A stretch of DNA of 62,967 nt, filler included, from Reclinomonas americana ATCC 50394 (GCA_048213135.1; 17 parts of 17 records of this genome joined end to end with filler, not necessarily neighbours in it), one strand, 5' to 3'; positions 16,229 through 26,324 are shown, numbered from the whole stretch's first letter. Program-made: numbers and translations. The notes: generated from the letters alone by a model not told the origin.

Positions 16229-17326
16229 ATGTCATCACTCCCGCCTCTCATCTGCAGGTACCTGCACACCCAATCGTTGGTGCGCGGCATTGCCATCACC
16301 CCCGATGGTCGGCACATTATCAGCGCGGGTACCTATTTCGTGAACGAGGTCACCTTGCGCAAGTGGACGCTGGCGAGCTGTCGCGAGGTGCAGCTGTTGA
16401 GAGACTACCACGAGACTCTCCTTTCCGTCGCCGTCTCTGCCGACGGCCAGTATGTGGTTGGAGGTGGGGAATATGAAACGGAAGTGCGAGTGTGGTCCCT
16501 GGCGAGTGGCGAGGAGGTGCTGCAGTTGACAGGGCACACAGGAGCGGTGAACGGTGTTGCCGTCACTCCCGATGGCCGGCACATTGTCAGCGGTGATAGC
16601 GATACCATGGTGCGAGTGTGGTGTGCGGCGAGTGGAGAGGAGGTATGGCAGCTCCAGGGTCATACCCGGGCTGTGTCGTCGGTTGCCGTCACTCCCGATA
16701 GCCAGTACATTGTGAGCGCGGGTGTTGATAGAGTCGTGAGGGTGTGGTCTCTGGCGAGTGGAGAGGAGGTGCGTCGACTGGAGGGTCACACTGGGTGGGT
16801 GACCGCAGTTACCGTCACGTGCGATGGTCAGCACGTGGTGAGTGCGGGTTCGGATGCGACTGTGCGAGTGTGGTCGCTGGCGAGTGGCGTGGGGGTACGG
16901 CAGCTCAAGGGTCATACTCGAGCTGTGTCGTCGGTTGCCGTCAGTCCCGACAGCCGGCGCATCGTGAGTGGGGGCTTGGACAACACAGTGCGGGTGTGGT
17001 CACTGGCGAGTGGTGACGAGTTGCGACAGCTGGAGGGATACGTCAATATGGTGTACGCCATTGCCGTGTCTCCCGACGGTCAGCACATTGTGAGCGGCAG
17101 TGCGGATTCGATAGTGCGCGTGTGGTCGTCACCGTGGGGCCTCGCTCGCTGTGAGGTGGAGTGTGCGCGTGAGGCGATGCTTGCCGTGCAGGAGATGAAT
17201 GGGGTAGGAGAAGGGGGGATGATGGACTCTCGCTGCCTGCCGGAGATGGTGTTGCGGTGTTTTCTGGTGGAGGATGCAGAGGCCATTCAATATCGATGCT
17301 CTCTTGACGATGCAATGCGCTTGTGA
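16229..17326 (+). CDS. 7-bladed WD40 protein with conserved C-terminal tail (array copy 1), intronless
   Basis: Seven repeats of GHTxxVxxVAVTPDGxHIVSxxxDxTVRVWS. Tail: GLARCEVECAREAMLAVQEM...SRCLPEMVLRCFLVEDAEAIQYRCSLDDAMRL. Confidence 0.9.
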   Translation: MSSLPPLICRYLHTQSLVRGIAITPDGRHIISAGTYFVNEVTLRKWTLASCREVQLLRDYHETLLSVAVSADGQYVVGGGEYETEVRVWSLASGEEVLQLTGHTGAVNGVAVTPDGRHIVSGDSDTMVRVWCAASGEEVWQLQGHTRAVSSVAVTPDSQYIVSAGVDRVVRVWSLASGEEVRRLEGHTGWVTAVTVTCDGQHVVSAGSDATVRVWSLASGVGVRQLKGHTRAVSSVAVSPDSRRIVSGGLDNTVRVWSLASGDELRQLEGYVNMVYAIAVSPDGQHIVSGSADSIVRVWSSPWGLARCEVECAREAMLAVQEMNGVGEGGMMDSRCLPEMVLRCFLVEDAEAIQYRCSLDDAMRL

Positions 17327-17497
17327 GGAAACGTGAAGTAAAAATGTATTCCTTCATCGCTGTGAGCTGCACAGTCTTGAGCTGCGCGTATTCAAAAGCA
17401 AAGAAGCGCAGTGAATGCCTGAAGACTCTCCTGACTCGCACGTGGAGGATTTCACCCATCCACTCCAGTCGACAGCACCACATCACTACGCACGCGA

Positions 17498-18583
17498 ATG
17501 TCATCAGTTCCCCCTCTCATCTGCAGGCGCTTTCGCGGTCAACCTTTTGAGTGCTGCGTTGCCATTACTCCCGATTGTCAGCACTTTGTTAGCTCGGGCG
17601 GCTTTCTCGAGGACAGCGTGCGAGTGTGGTCACTGGCGAGTTGCCGTGTGGTGCGACACCTGCGTGGTAACTACCTAGGTGTAGCTTCTATTGCTGTCAG
17701 TGCCGACGGCCAGCATGTGGTGGGGGGTGGGGAGTATGAAACGGAAGTGTCGGTGTGGTCACTGGCGAGTGGAGAACTAGTGAGACAGTTGGTGGGGCAC
17801 ACAGACGGGGTGAACTCGGTTGCATTTACTCCCGATGGCCAGCGCATTGTGAGCGGCAGTGATGACAACACGGTGCGTGTGTGGTGTGTGGCAAATGGAG
17901 CGCAGGTGCGACTATTGCAGCATCCTGATGCGGTGCGGTCGGTCGCCGTCACTAGTGCGCACATCGTGAGTGGTTGCAATGCTGACTACACGGTGCGTGT
18001 GTGGTCGCTGGAGAGCGGAGAGGAGGTGCGTCGACTGGAGGGTCACACTGGGTGGATGTCCGCTGTTACTGTCACGTGCGATGGTCAGCATGTGGTGAGC
18101 GGGGGTTCGGATGCGACCGTGCGTGTGTGGTCGCTGGCGAGTGGGGAGGAGGTACGGCAGCTCAACCGAGCTGCGTCATCGATTGCTGTCACTCCCGACA
18201 GCCGGCGCATCGTGAGTGGGGGCTTTGACAATATGGTGCGAGTGTGGTCACTGGAGAGTGGCGAAGAGCTGCGACGGCTGGAGGGACACTTCCATAGGGT
18301 ACGCACTAGGGTATGGGCCGTTGCCGTGTCTCCCGATGGCCACCACATTGTGAGCTGCGGTACAGACGAGACGGTGTGTGTGTGGTCGTCGCCGTGTGGC
18401 CTCGCTCGTTTTGAGGTGCAGAGTGCGCGACTGGCCATACTCGCCGTGCAAGAGATGCAGCATGATGGAGAAGAGGGGATGGACTCTCGCTGCCTGCCGG
18501 AGCTGGTGTTGCGGTGTTTCCTGGTGGAGGATGCAGAGGCCATTCAATATCGATGCTCTCTTGATGAAGAAATGTGCTTGTGA
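17498..18583 (+). CDS. 7-bladed WD40 protein, array copy 2
   Basis: Same MSSVPPLICR start, WD repeats and C-terminal tail as copy 1. Confidence 0.9.
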   Translation: MSSVPPLICRRFRGQPFECCVAITPDCQHFVSSGGFLEDSVRVWSLASCRVVRHLRGNYLGVASIAVSADGQHVVGGGEYETEVSVWSLASGELVRQLVGHTDGVNSVAFTPDGQRIVSGSDDNTVRVWCVANGAQVRLLQHPDAVRSVAVTSAHIVSGCNADYTVRVWSLESGEEVRRLEGHTGWMSAVTVTCDGQHVVSGGSDATVRVWSLASGEEVRQLNRAASSIAVTPDSRRIVSGGFDNMVRVWSLESGEELRRLEGHFHRVRTRVWAVAVSPDGHHIVSCGTDETVCVWSSPCGLARFEVQSARLAILAVQEMQHDGEEGMDSRCLPELVLRCFLVEDAEAIQYRCSLDEEMCL

Positions 18584-18786
18584 GGAAGGCGTGAAGTAAA
18601 GTGGTATTCCTTCATCGCTGTGAGCTGCACTGTCATGAATTGCAGGTAGTCGAAGGCAAAGAGGCGCAGTGAATGGCTGAAGACTCTCCTGACTTGCACG
18701 TGGGGCAAGACCATGAGTCGGAGGAATTCACCCATCCAATCAGTCGACAGCACATCACTCCCTCATCTAAATCACTACGCACGCGA

Positions 18787-24885: not shown

Positions 24886-25169
24886 CTTCCCGTTTAGTTG
24901 CAGTTCTTTGTTTCTTTCTCGCTCTTCCACACGATGTGCCTTGTTGCTCACACGCCTCACAGACAGTCGGCGTTCTTGTGGCAGTCTGTCGTGTGTGTGT
25001 GTGTGAGTGTGTGTGTGTGTGTGTGTATGCCGGCGAGGGATTAGATAAAGGCCCGACTTCAAATCGACGAAGTTGACCCACCTACCTTTGAATTTAAGGC
25101 CCTTTATGATTCATCGTTCCATTCCGTTCAAGTCGAATCACACACTTACTCACACAGAGCGCACGCACA

Positions 25170-25200
<31 letters not shown>

Positions 25201-25235
25201 GACACACTTATACACATACACATACACACACACAC

Positions 25236-26324
25236 ATGTCATCAGTTCCTCCTCTCATCTGCCGACTCTTGCACGATCAATCCATGGCGAGCTGCATTGC
25301 GATCACTCCCGACAGTCGGCACATTTTCAGCGCGGGCGGGTCGCTCCCTGACGCACACGATGCCACGATTCGAGTGTGGTCGCTGGTGAGCTGCCGTGTA
25401 GTGTGGCAACTGCCTGGCAGCTGCGGAGCTCTAGCTTCAATCACTGTCAGTGCCGACGGCCAGCATGTGGTTGGAGGTGGGAAGTATGACAACGCAGTGT
25501 GGTCACTGGAGAGTGGAAAACAAGTGCGGCGACTCAAGGGACACATAAGAAAGGTGAACGCGGTCGCTGTCACCCCCGATGGCCAGCACATTGTGAGTGG
25601 CAGTGATGACAACACGGTGCGTGTGTGGTCGGTGGCGAGTGGAGCGCAGGTGCGGCTACTGCCGCATTCGTTTGCGGTAAACGCGGTCGCTGTCACATCT
25701 GATGGTGCGCACATTGTGAGCGGTGGCCGTTCTGACAACACGGTGCATGTGTGGTCACTGGCAAGTGGAGAGAAGGTGCGACTATTGGAGAGAGTTGGAG
25801 GTGTCGTGTCGATTGCTGTCACTCCTGACGGGCAGCACGTGGTGTGCGGCGGCAGGGGTGACATTGCGCGTGTTTGGTCGCTGGCGAGTGGCGTGGAGGT
25901 ACGGCAACTTCCTGTGAGCGGCAGCGTGGTTTCGGTTGCTGTCTCCCCCGATAGTCGGTACATCGTGACAGGGAGCTACGGCAGCACAGTGCAGGTGTGG
26001 TCACTGGCGAGTGGGAAAGAGGTACAACGGCTGCAAGCGCAAGAGCAGTGTGTGTATGCCGTCGCCGTGACAGCCGACGGCCAGCACATTGTGAGCGGCA
26101 ATACATACAACTCTATATGTGTGTGGTCGTCTCCGTGTGGCCTCGCTCGATGTGAGGTGGAGTGCGCGCGTGCGGCGATGCTCGCCGTGCAGGAGATGCA
26201 GCGCGATGGAGAAGAAGAGATGGACTCGCGCTGCCTGCCGGAGATGGTGTTGCGGTGCTTTTTGGTGGAAGATGCAGAGGCCGTTCTCTATCGATGCTCT
26301 ACAGATGACGGAATGCGCCTGTGA
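25236..26324 (+). CDS. 7-bladed WD40 protein, array copy 5, head-to-head with the NACHT gene
   Basis: MSSVPPLICR start and tail SPCGLARCEVECARAAMLAVQEM...SRCLPEMVLRCFLVEDAEAVLYRCSTDDGMRL. Confidence 0.9.
   Translation: MSSVPPLICRLLHDQSMASCIAITPDSRHIFSAGGSLPDAHDATIRVWSLVSCRVVWQLPGSCGALASITVSADGQHVVGGGKYDNAVWSLESGKQVRRLKGHIRKVNAVAVTPDGQHIVSGSDDNTVRVWSVASGAQVRLLPHSFAVNAVAVTSDGAHIVSGGRSDNTVHVWSLASGEKVRLLERVGGVVSIAVTPDGQHVVCGGRGDIARVWSLASGVEVRQLPVSGSVVSVAVSPDSRYIVTGSYGSTVQVWSLASGKEVQRLQAQEQCVYAVAVTADGQHIVSGNTYNSICVWSSPCGLARCEVECARAAMLAVQEMQRDGEEEMDSRCLPEMVLRCFLVEDAEAVLYRCSTDDGMRL

What the first reader, a model, noticed from the sequence alone, without database searches (positions are those of the whole stretch)
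16229..26324. Diversifying WD40 gene array surrounding the NLR-like gene and sharing its repeat unit
Seen: at least 4 intronless WD40 genes and one stub flank the NACHT gene. They use the same repeat consensus (VWSLASGEEVRRLEGHT..V.AVAVTPDGQHIVSG) as its sensor domain. Starts, tails and spacers are strongly conserved, while residues after GH and around SGxxD differ between copies. Known: fungal HNWD genes generate new specificities by exchanging WD repeats. Inferred: the array acts as a repeat reservoir for gene conversion, or encodes partner/decoy sensors, forming a variable-receptor locus.
Basis: partly seen in the sequence, partly recalled or inferred. Interest (0 to 1): 0.78.

Follow-up and report, generated by a model that had tools for sequence, protein, structure and literature searches.

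The report
WD40 gene array beside NLR-like gene
A protist-like DNA stretch carries a row of small WD40 propeller genes next to one large NLR-type sensor gene built from related repeats, but the two evolve separately, so the row is not a spare-parts store for the sensor.

Summary
The window is a chain of contigs joined by 100-base N/stop-codon linkers, and one linker cuts the array. The 'stub' is a gene cut by that gap.

On one contig, a 1381-aa gene (weak HEPN-like head, NACHT, pentapeptide, 14 WD40 repeats; minus strand) has a small WD40 gene on each side. Two more complete small genes lie on the preceding contig.

The repeat-reservoir reading fails:
- All 13 full NACHT-gene units form one clade (95/90 support).
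- They carry their own synonymous-codon signature.
- No NACHT-type tract was seen in any small-gene unit, nor the reverse.

Small-gene units group by blade position, which fits whole-gene duplication. The small genes do recombine with each other in register (max-chi2 p <= 0.0002), and one blade was overwritten within gene A.

Inside the NACHT gene, the four codons homologous to the positively selected HET-E/HNWD codons show about twofold nonsynonymous excess.

A partner or decoy role is untested.

Earlier notes of this scan report about ten similar stand-alone WD40 arrays elsewhere in this assembly. None of them mentions an NLR neighbour. This is an ordinary-to-moderate finding: a new member of known kinds.

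The parts
16139..16228 (+). CT/CA-rich tract at the start of contig 4, directly upstream of the WD-A ATG
   Evidence: The contig begins at 16139.
16229..17326 (+). WD-A: stand-alone 7-blade WD40 gene, 365 aa, with a conserved C-terminal tail
17327..17497 (+). Conserved array spacer A>B (171 nt)
   Evidence: 89-91% identical to the other two spacers.
17498..18583 (+). WD-B: stand-alone 7-blade WD40 gene, 361 aa. It is a mosaic, D-like in the 5' half and A-like in the 3' half.
18584..18786 (+). Conserved array spacer B>C (203 nt)
18787..19065 (+). WD-C 5' part (93 codons), cut by the contig end.
19066..19165 (.). Artificial contig linker (44 N, TTAATTAATTAA, 44 N)
19166..19417 (+). 3' part of a WD gene: last blade, tail and stop. 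It may or may not be the same gene as the WD-C 5' part.
19418..19617 (+). Conserved array spacer (200 nt)
   Evidence: 87-91% identical to the other spacers.
19618..19646 (+). Vestigial start of a further array gene. Homology to the family ends after about 29 nt.
19793..23938 (-). NLR-like gene: a single 1381-aa ORF with an orphan head, NACHT, pentapeptide repeats and 14 WD40 repeats
19796..21658 (-). WD40 region of the NLR-like gene (aa 761-1381): a partial first unit, 13 full units (12 of 42 aa, one of 45 aa) and a closing unit with a short tail
   Evidence: (126-nt period, 13.6 copies).
21674..21832 (-). Pentapeptide-repeat linker (aa 703-755)
   Evidence: Pfam PF00805 and PF13576. NCBIfam pentapeptide models match aa 701-760.
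22748..23104 (-). NACHT NTPase core matched by Pfam (aa 279-397). Walker A is GNSGAGKT and Walker B is LLLLLDGYDE.
23432..23509 (-). Weak HEPN-like stretch in the head (aa 144-169), containing RNEMVH, an Rx4H motif
   Evidence: Pfam HEPN_Swt1 E 0.087. Atlas look-alikes are HEPN_Swt1 (0.79) and HEPN_DZIP3 (0.78). Both are leads only.
23939..25235. 1.3-kb interval between the divergent NACHT gene and WD-D. It holds a 355-aa minus-strand ORF (23995-25062) with no Pfam family at E <= 0.01 (at E <= 1 only a below-threshold UL41A row), a (GT)18 run, and a (CT)n(CA)n tract upstream of WD-D.
25236..26324 (+). WD-D: stand-alone 7-blade WD40 gene, 362 aa, with flanks unlike the array spacers
   Evidence: A 429-nt contig of run X1 is identical to 25814-26242.

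Best explanation
Two related WD40 gene sets lie side by side and evolve separately.

(1) A head-to-tail array of small genes, with a period of about 1.27 kb. Each gene encodes one seven-bladed WD40 propeller plus a family-specific C-terminal helical hairpin of about 60 aa, with the invariant core RCLPE..L.CF.VE. The array grows by whole-gene duplication. It is reshaped by in-register recombination or gene conversion between paralogues, and occasionally one blade is overwritten by another within a gene. Spacers, starts and tails are kept or homogenised.

(2) One NLR-type STAND gene with a possibly HEPN-like head, NACHT, pentapeptide repeats and 14 WD40 repeats. Its repeats were amplified or homogenised within the gene. 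They vary mainly at the four top-face positions that are under positive selection in the fungal HET-E/HNWD receptors.

Inferred from family knowledge, not shown here:
- The double propeller of the NLR-like protein binds a ligand, the NACHT module then oligomerises, and the head is activated.
- The small propellers are separate binding proteins that share one partner or self-associate through the tail.

The array ends in a 29-nt gene remnant 146 nt from the stop codon of the convergent NACHT gene. The neighbourhood therefore looks like the product of a rearrangement into or next to an existing array, not a built-in donor-acceptor system.
For: Unit tree and identities:
- In the tree of 32 units by 126 nt, the NACHT units are one clade (95/90). 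Small-gene units group by blade position: A1/B1/D1 100/99, A4/B4 100/97, B3/D3 100/99, A5/B5/D5 plus A3 97/87.
- Nucleotide identity is 71-93% (mean 80%) among NACHT units, and 47-74% (mean 62%) between NACHT and small-gene units.
- At 8 diagnostic third-codon positions, no cross-class tract appears in any of the 32 units (codon display).

Small genes:
- dN/dS is 0.40-0.45. In the tail, pN is 0.08 against pS 0.32-0.40 for A-D and B-D.
- Mosaic of A, B and D: 87 BD against 45 AB sites to the left, 95 AB against 31 BD to the right, p <= 0.0002.
- The central part of A3 is 51/60 identical to A5, against 36/51 to B3 and 36/57 to D3.
- Spacers are 87-91% identical against 71-78% for coding sequence.

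NACHT units:
- Codons 21, 23, 39 and 41 correspond to codons 7, 9, 25 and 27 of Paoletti 2007 (PMC1805685, passages read). They have the same 18-codon spacing, and each pair flanks an invariant residue.
- These codons carry 44.7 nonsynonymous changes against 20.6 expected from the synonymous rate. Omega is about 2.2, binomial p 5.6e-5. The other 37 of the 42 codons outside my first post-hoc set of five have a ratio of 0.32.

Tail:
- The profile search of 1.84 billion representatives gave 3 hits. Two are real: P0011, a 116-aa EST-derived ORF filed under Reclinomonas americana (E 2e-22), and P0013, 381 aa, a diverged propeller with the same core motif (E 3.6e-6).
- The AF2 model of the tail has two helices (2-25 and 35-57), mean pLDDT 69.9.
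Against: - Only one genome copy and 32 short units were available. A 126-nt alignment resolves little inside the clades: 17 of 29 inner branches are open.
- A site-permutation run test flagged some NACHT/small pairs, for example D2-N9 with a run of 27 polymorphic sites (p 0.0002). I attribute this to the conserved AVAVTPDGQHIVSGS block, which B2 also shares, and not to recent conversion. An old exchange involving blade 2 cannot be excluded.
- The parsimony counts assume a tree, although the units probably recombine. Synonymous sites are also near saturation, at about 2.1 changes per site over the tree.
- The internal repeat identity of the NACHT gene (mean 72% aa) is below the 85% used to define highly conserved NLR repeats (PMC4986451, passages). 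Ongoing concerted evolution is therefore not shown.
- Other NACHT paralogues exist. Contigs about 85-90% alike to 21739-22425 are present in run X1. Their repeats could not be compared.
- Physical linkage of WD-A and WD-B to the NACHT contig is unproven.
- The functions of both proteins are inferred only.
Confidence: 0.65

Rival explanations
1. Repeat reservoir. The small WD40 genes donate 126-nt units or tracts to the sensor domain of the NACHT gene by gene conversion. This would create new specificities, as between the HNWD loci of Podospora or from the cassette arrays of lamprey VLR genes.
For: - The repeat consensus is shared: 32/42 aa, 95/126 nt.
- The genes are physically close on one contig.
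- Conversion is active among the small genes.
- A run test flags D2-N9, D2-N7 and A4/B4-N9.
Against: - The NACHT units are monophyletic (95/90, 96% of bootstrap trees).
- At 8 diagnostic synonymous sites, the 19 small units carry 0-2 NACHT-type states, never adjacent in a tract. The 13 NACHT units carry 5-8.
- The flagged runs lie in the most conserved block and are shared by the orthologous blade B2.
- The small genes are full ORFs with dN/dS 0.40-0.45 and a constrained tail.
- The NACHT gene lies on the opposite strand to the small genes.
Confidence: 0.05
2. Functional pair. The small propellers are partners, decoys or regulators of the neighbouring NLR-like protein. They might, for example, compete for or present its ligands, and the genes would be kept together for that reason.
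For: - On one contig the NACHT gene has family members on both sides.
- The two WD domains are each other's closest relatives among everything compared: 50-52% against 38% or less, and about 20%.
- Both vary at top-face positions.
Against: - The small-gene tail and the NACHT head share no motif (BLASTP E 1.5 or worse).
- The orientations are convergent and divergent, not a shared unit.
- The array ends in a truncated gene remnant, which suggests an accidental junction.
- Earlier unchecked notes of this scan list about ten arrays of this family elsewhere in the assembly, none mentioning an NLR neighbour.
Confidence: 0.17
3. Assembly artefact. The neighbourhood is produced by concatenating or mis-joining contigs of a mixed draft assembly, and the array does not really surround the NACHT gene.
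For: - There are 16 identical artificial linkers, one of them inside the array. The same linker also joins bacterial-type contigs.
- Contig ends fall inside WD repeats.
- Microsatellites lie between the NACHT gene and WD-D.
Against: - Contig 19166-27224 is continuous and itself holds a WD gene 3' end, the spacer, the vestigial start, the NACHT gene and WD-D.
- The junction at 19647-19792 is unique sequence, not repeat.
- The spacer on this contig is 87-91% identical to the two on the preceding contig.
Confidence: 0.08

Closest known systems
Podospora anserina NWD/HNWD family (HET-E, HET-D, HET-R). Paoletti et al. 2007, PMC1805685 (passages read); Dyrka et al. 2014, PMC4986451 (passages read).
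   Same: - NACHT followed by many 42-aa WD40 units that resemble each other.
- Variability is concentrated in two codon pairs 18 codons apart, each flanking an invariant residue, with a nonsynonymous excess.
   Different: - No HET domain. The head is an orphan with only weak HEPN-like signals.
- A pentapeptide linker is present.
- Internal repeat identity is 72% aa, against about 85% in the fungal family.
- No exchange with the other WD genes of the locus was detected, whereas HNWD loci exchange units between genes.
- The organism is not a fungus.
NACHT-PPR-WD40 NOD-like receptors of Mortierellomycota and their Mycoavidus endosymbionts (Ciach et al. 2024, PMC11291939, passages read), and similar cyanobacterial and actinobacterial STAND proteins
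   Same: The same three-module order: NACHT, pentapeptide, WD40. The best database relatives of aa 1-760 carry the same Pfam set.
   Different: Only 23-29% identity to the longer-aligning of the 9 hits (one further hit shows 47% over 8% of the query). The head domain has no detectable relative: 0 of 1173 candidates. A bacterial origin was not tested here.
Stand-alone 7-blade WD40 arrays with an orphan tail, noted elsewhere in this assembly by this scan (e1-7451590, e1-7449701, e1-7451766, e1-7384701 and others; unchecked AI notes). Also the EST-derived ORF P0011, filed under Reclinomonas americana.
   Same: Small uninterrupted genes in tandem, with a conserved tail and a variable top face. The tail profile finds P0011 and P0013.
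   Different: In this window the array abuts an NLR-like gene with related repeats. A sequence look-up in the scan's index found no look-alike of WD-D, so the other arrays are diverged or not indexed.
Donor-cassette receptor systems (lamprey VLR, pseudogene-templated conversion); recalled, no paper read
   Same: An array of repeat-bearing sequences lies next to a repeat-based receptor gene.
   Different: The supposed donors are complete genes under selection, and no donor tracts are seen in the receptor.

Membership tests
NLR-like STAND protein, NACHT-WD40 type | NACHT NTPase domain with Walker A and Walker B | tested here: met
   Pfam PF05729 E 2.7e-7, 31.0 bits against a cut-off of 26.7, aa 279-397. 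GNSGAGKT and LLLLLDGYDE are read in the translation.
NLR-like STAND protein, NACHT-WD40 type | C-terminal superstructure-forming repeats (WD40) | tested here: met
   Pfam WD40 E 1.9e-160 with 14 stretches. Units were parsed.
NLR-like STAND protein, NACHT-WD40 type | Recognisable N-terminal effector domain | tested here: inconclusive
   - HEPN_Swt1 E 0.087, 13.6 bits against a cut-off of 27.5.
- Atlas scores are 0.79 and 0.78, both below the 0.9 lead level.
- The single-sequence AF2 model has pLDDT 34.9.
- No relatives were found.
NACHT-PPR-WD40 architecture | Pentapeptide repeats between NACHT and WD40 | tested here: met
   PF00805 at 29.3 bits against a cut-off of 20.2, aa 703-730. NCBIfam pentapeptide models match aa 701-760 but are all below their cut-offs.
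Fungal HNWD (HET-E/D/R) | N-terminal HET domain | tested here: not met
   No HET hit in Pfam scans of aa 1-760 at E <= 1 or of aa 1-270 at E <= 10.
Fungal HNWD (HET-E/D/R) | High internal repeat conservation (about 85% aa) | tested here: not met
   Mean 72%, range 57-93% aa, among the 13 units. The threshold is from PMC4986451.
Fungal HNWD (HET-E/D/R) | Positive selection at four top-face codons (7, 9, 25, 27) | tested here: met
   Homologous codons 21, 23, 39 and 41 carry 44.7 nonsynonymous changes against 20.6 expected, omega about 2.2, p 5.6e-5. This is a counting method on one gene and is not recombination-aware.
Fungal HNWD (HET-E/D/R) | Exchange of repeat units between loci (concerted evolution across genes) | tested here: not met
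   Tested against the neighbouring small genes only. Other NACHT paralogues could not be tested.
Donor-cassette (reservoir) system | Donor-derived tracts present in the acceptor gene | tested here: not met
Donor-cassette (reservoir) system | Donors are silent or incomplete cassettes | tested here: not met
   Three complete ORFs with dN/dS 0.40-0.45 and a conserved start and tail.
F-box/WD40 or SOCS-box/WD40 ubiquitin-ligase adaptors | F-box or SOCS box detectable in the tail | tested here: not met
   - Pfam found 0 families at E <= 10 for the 70-aa tail.
- The PDB profile search gave 0 hits at E <= 10.
- The AF2 model is a two-helix hairpin.
- Foldseek returned only non-specific hairpins, with 0 of 201 matches at E <= 0.001.
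Stand-alone WD40-plus-tail family (unnamed) | Seven blades followed by a tail with the core RCLPE..L.CF.VE | tested here: met

The most novel reading that the evidence does not exclude
The small propellers are sensor-only relatives of the NLR's own recognition domain, kept beside it as co-receptors or decoys. Under this reading a single-celled eukaryote would run a two-tier locus: many diversified stand-alone binders feeding or buffering one switch-and-effector protein. This would be a protist counterpart of paired NLRs with decoys. My data exclude sequence exchange between the two gene sets, but they do not exclude functional coupling.
Probability: 0.1. Interest if true: 0.7.

Novelty: new member of a known kind. 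Interest (0 to 1): 0.36.

Why it matters
- It shows the HNWD-style pattern of variation (an alike scaffold with four hypervariable top-face codons) in a NACHT-pentapeptide-WD40 gene outside fungi. This adds to the evidence that repeat-based NLR sensors diversify in similar ways across lineages.
- It also removes a tempting but unsupported reading. A neighbouring array with the same repeat consensus is not necessarily a conversion reservoir.
- The stand-alone WD40-plus-tail family is almost absent from public protein data: 2 real hits in 1.84 billion representatives. I found no paper on it, but my literature searches were aimed at NACHT/WD40 and NLRs and not at this family by name.

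Tried and rejected
- **Shared motif between the small-gene tail and the NACHT N-terminus (HET-s/NWD2-like idea).** BLASTP E was 1.5-30. Rejected.
- **F-box or SOCS-box tail.** Pfam, the PDB profile search and Foldseek were all negative, and the model is a two-helix hairpin. Rejected.
- **Site-permutation run test as evidence of NACHT/array conversion.** Rejected as confounded, because 109 of 123 columns are polymorphic and the runs sit in the conserved block.
- **Head-domain fold.** The single-sequence AF2 model has pLDDT 34.9 and is unusable. 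No homologues were available to build an alignment.
- **PADLOC and NCBIfam scans.** Nothing informative.
- **Conserved RNA structure in the spacers.** 0 of 47 predicted pairs show covariation.
- **Whole-genome search.** No genome is held for this window.
- **Word-index search with the tail.** None of 8 candidates passed.
- **Sequencing runs.** No RNA holder is listed. The one small run, X1 (kind unknown, 0.06 of words), gave one identical 429-nt contig on WD-D and paralogue-like contigs on 21739-22425. It gave no cover of the junctions.
- **The scan's index by sequence.** No look-alikes for WD-D or for the NACHT N-part.
- **Literature.** No paper holds both 'jakobid' and 'NACHT'.

Full report
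**What the window is**

The 62,967-base window is not one molecule. It holds 16 copies of an artificial 100-base linker (44 N, TTAATTAATTAA, 44 N), which split it into 17 contigs.

From 48.8 kb onward, the contigs joined by the same linker have GC 0.58-0.665. They carry long ORFs for a D-Ala-D-Ala carboxypeptidase, an AMP-binding enzyme and an amidohydrolase, so they look bacterial. The assembly is therefore mixed, and adjacency across a linker proves nothing.

The finding spans two contigs: 16139-19065 and 19166-27224. No whole genome is held for this window.

**What is there**

Contig 4:
- It starts with a CT/CA-rich tract.
- WD-A follows (16229-17326), then a 171-nt spacer, WD-B (17498-18583) and a 203-nt spacer.
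- It ends with the first 93 codons of WD-C (ATG at 18787), which run into the contig end.

Contig 5:
- It opens inside the last blade of a WD gene and reads through that gene's tail and stop (19166-19417).
- Next come a 200-nt spacer and a 29-nt remnant of yet another gene start (19618-19646). Family homology stops after that remnant.
- 146 nt further on is the stop codon of a convergent 1381-aa ORF on the minus strand (19793-23938).
- Upstream of that ORF's ATG lies a 1.3-kb interval. On the + strand it is followed by WD-D (25236-26324), whose flanks are unrelated to the array spacers.

There are three complete small genes, one or two gap-cut genes, and a vestige. No other member lies elsewhere in the window: all 20 tblastn HSPs fall inside 16139-27224.

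**The large gene**

Pfam results:
- NACHT: 31.0 bits, cut-off 26.7, aa 279-397.
- Pentapeptide repeats: 29.3 bits, cut-off 20.2.
- WD40: 14 stretches, E 1.9e-160.

Walker A (GNSGAGKT) and Walker B (LLLLLDGYDE) are intact. The WD region parses into a partial first unit, 13 full units (12 of 42 aa, one of 45 aa) and a closing unit. That is enough for two seven-bladed propellers.

The first 270 residues are an orphan:
- There is one weak Pfam hit, HEPN_Swt1 (E 0.087), over a stretch containing RNEMVH.
- The language-model look-alikes are HEPN_Swt1 (0.79) and HEPN_DZIP3 (0.78), both under the 0.9 lead level.
- The single-sequence fold is unusable.
- No relative was found among 1173 candidates.

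I therefore call the head 'possibly HEPN-like', and no more.

The best database relatives of aa 1-760 are 9 proteins. The longer-aligning hits are 23-29% identical, and several carry the same NACHT, pentapeptide and WD40 Pfam set.

**The small genes**

Each encodes about 362 aa: seven blades followed by a tail of about 60-70 aa.

The four tails are 78-82% identical to the first one. With two database relatives added, the invariant core is RCLPE..L.CF.VE.

A profile of the tail, run against 1.84 billion representative proteins, gave 3 hits:
- P0011 (E 2e-22), a 116-aa EST-derived ORF filed by EukProt under Reclinomonas americana.
- P0013 (E 3.6e-6), a 381-aa protein with a much more diverged propeller and the same core motif.
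- P0012, a spurious repeat protein.

A word-index search of 5.8 billion proteins found nothing.

The AF2 model of the tail is a two-helix hairpin with mean pLDDT 69.9. Foldseek matches only generic hairpins, with 0 of 201 matches at E <= 0.001. Pfam and a PDB profile search found no F-box, SOCS box or anything else.

I do not know which organism the eukaryotic contigs come from. The EST hit is the only taxonomic pointer.

**Is the repeat unit shared?**

Yes, at the level of the consensus.
- The consensus of the 13 NACHT units and that of the 19 small-gene units agree at 32 of 42 residues and 95 of 126 nt.
- WD-D aligns to the NACHT protein's WD region at 50-52% identity over about 300 aa.
- By comparison, the best of 306 plasmid records reaches 37.7%, and P0001's WD region is about 20% identical.

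The two WD domains are therefore specifically related.

**Is the array a reservoir for the NACHT gene?**

I aligned 32 full units as codons and built a maximum-likelihood tree.

Tree results:
- The 13 NACHT units form one clade (95/90, present in 96% of bootstrap trees).
- The small-gene units do not group by gene. They group by blade position: A1/B1/D1 100/99, A4/B4 100/97, B3/D3 100/99, A6/B6 94/83, B2/D2 94/76, and A5/B5/D5 with A3 97/87.
- Nucleotide identity is 71-93% among NACHT units and 47-74% between NACHT and small-gene units.

Synonymous-site evidence:
- The NACHT units share synonymous codon choices that the small genes lack.
- At 8 diagnostic third positions the NACHT units carry 5-8 NACHT-type states. 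The small units carry 0-2, scattered. No unit of either class shows a tract of the other type.

A Sawyer-style site-permutation test did flag pairs such as D2-N9. However, 109 of 123 columns count as polymorphic, so the test cannot separate conversion from clustered constraint. The runs lie in the AVAVTPDGQHIVSGS block, and the orthologous blade B2 shares the same states. I read this as retained ancestry and not as recent transfer.

The small genes are also not silent cassettes. dN/dS is 0.40-0.45, and the tail has pN 0.08 against pS 0.32-0.40 in the A-D and B-D comparisons.

The reservoir reading is therefore not supported in this copy of the locus.

**Gene conversion does occur, among the small genes**

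Along the A/B/D codon alignment the nearest pair switches. Left of codon 174, 87 sites support B with D and 45 support A with B. To the right, 95 support A with B and 31 support B with D (max-chi2 44.3, permutation p <= 0.0002). Synonymous divergence follows the same pattern.

Blade 3 of gene A groups with the blade-5 clade. Its central part is 51/60 identical to A5, against 36/51 to B3 and 36/57 to D3. This is an out-of-register overwrite within one gene.

The three spacers are 87-91% identical, while whole coding sequences are 71-78% identical. The spacers are therefore either constrained or homogenised. They show no covarying RNA structure: 0 of 47 pairs.

**Diversification**

Paoletti et al. 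2007 (PMC1805685, passages read) found strong positive selection at codons 7, 9, 25 and 27 of the HNWD repeat. These are two pairs, each flanking an invariant residue. One pair lies in the d-a loop and the other in the b-c turn, both on the top face of the propeller.

In my unit numbering the same geometry is codons 21/23 (flanking V22) and 39/41 (flanking D40), also 18 codons apart. I took these four as an a-priori class.

NACHT units, parsimony counts on the unit tree:
- 44.7 nonsynonymous changes against 20.6 expected from the overall synonymous rate.
- Omega is about 2.2, with binomial p 5.6e-5.
- Fisher test against the other codons gives p 6e-7.
- Outside a post-hoc set of five variable codons, the ratio is 0.32.

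Caveats: the data come from one gene, the units are short, the synonymous sites are near saturation, and the method assumes a tree although the units probably recombine.

Small genes: between orthologous blades, the same four codons give pN/pS 1.29 and the rest give 0.48. This is compatible with relaxed constraint as much as with selection.

The NACHT gene's internal repeat identity (mean 72% aa) is below the 85% that Dyrka et al. 2014 used for 'highly conserved' NLR repeats (PMC4986451, passages).

**Partner or decoy reading**

I could not test binding. The one sequence-level idea was a motif shared between the small-gene tail and the NACHT N-terminus, as in the fungal HET-s/NWD2 pair. It is not supported (E 1.5 or worse).

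The gene remnant at the array's end suggests an accidental junction.

Earlier notes of this scan (unchecked AI notes) list about ten arrays of such stand-alone WD40 genes on other pieces of the same assembly, none mentioning an NLR neighbour. They also list separate NACHT-pentapeptide-WD40 clusters. If those notes are right, the pairing here is one of many placements of the array family. I did not verify them, and the scan's sequence index returned no look-alike for WD-D or for the NACHT N-part.

**Other data**

One small public run (X1, kind unknown) holds a 429-nt contig identical to 25814-26242. It also holds several contigs about 85-90% alike to 21739-22425. NACHT paralogues therefore exist, but their repeats could not be compared. 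This run may be the source of the assembly, so it is not independent evidence.

**Comparison and verdict**

The large gene works like, and is built like, a NACHT-pentapeptide-WD40 NLR-type protein. That architecture has been reported in Mortierellomycota and their endosymbionts (PMC11291939, passages) and in bacteria.

Its repeat variation follows the HNWD pattern. It is not an HNWD member, for three reasons: it has no HET domain, its repeat identity is lower, and no inter-locus exchange was detected.

The small genes belong to a lineage-restricted WD40-plus-hairpin family that this scan has met repeatedly.

The locus is a new member of known kinds. Its most distinctive proposed feature, a conversion reservoir, is not supported.

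Noticed in passing
window 2201-61745 (16 sites; cores listed): Every contig junction is the same 100-base linker (44 N, TTAATTAATTAA, 44 N). Any feature that spans a linker in this window has unproven continuity.
   Followed up: yes
window 48832-62967: Contigs with GC 0.58-0.665 and long ORFs for Peptidase_S11 (51917-52897, minus strand), an AMP-binding enzyme (50062-51732, plus strand) and Amidohydro_3 (61694-62827, minus strand). They look bacterial, so the assembly mixes organisms.
   Followed up: partly
window 23900-25062, minus strand: Upstream of the NACHT ATG there are splice-like signals: ATGTCG followed by GTGAGT near 24885, a GTGTAT donor candidate near 24013, and a TTTACAG acceptor at about 23923. 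That donor-acceptor pair would join the 355-aa ORF 23995-25062 in frame to codon 6 of the NACHT ORF. The gene may therefore have 5' exons and a longer head. No RNA data were available.
   Followed up: partly
window 19767-21506 (+), and other + strand ORFs over 19760-21823: Long antisense ORFs of up to 579 aa overlie the NACHT gene's WD repeats. They are a by-product of the periodic repeat and are not genes.
   Followed up: no
window 16139-16228 and 25160-25235: WD-A and WD-D both have a (CT)n(CA)n tract directly before the ATG, whereas the internal array genes have the conserved spacer instead. This may mark the first gene of an array or a promoter region.
   Followed up: no
window 18787-19065: The second blade of WD-C is not of the blade-1 type shared by A, B and D (SCR..., SADGQHVVGGG). 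This copy therefore has a different blade order or has lost a blade.
   Followed up: no
window 30557-33691 (+) and 41091-42287 (-): Eukaryote-like ORF fragments on other contigs: Sey1 three-helix-bundle hits split over two ORFs, and an ankyrin-repeat ORF. A Prp3_C-like ORF lies at 11316-12305 (-).
   Followed up: no
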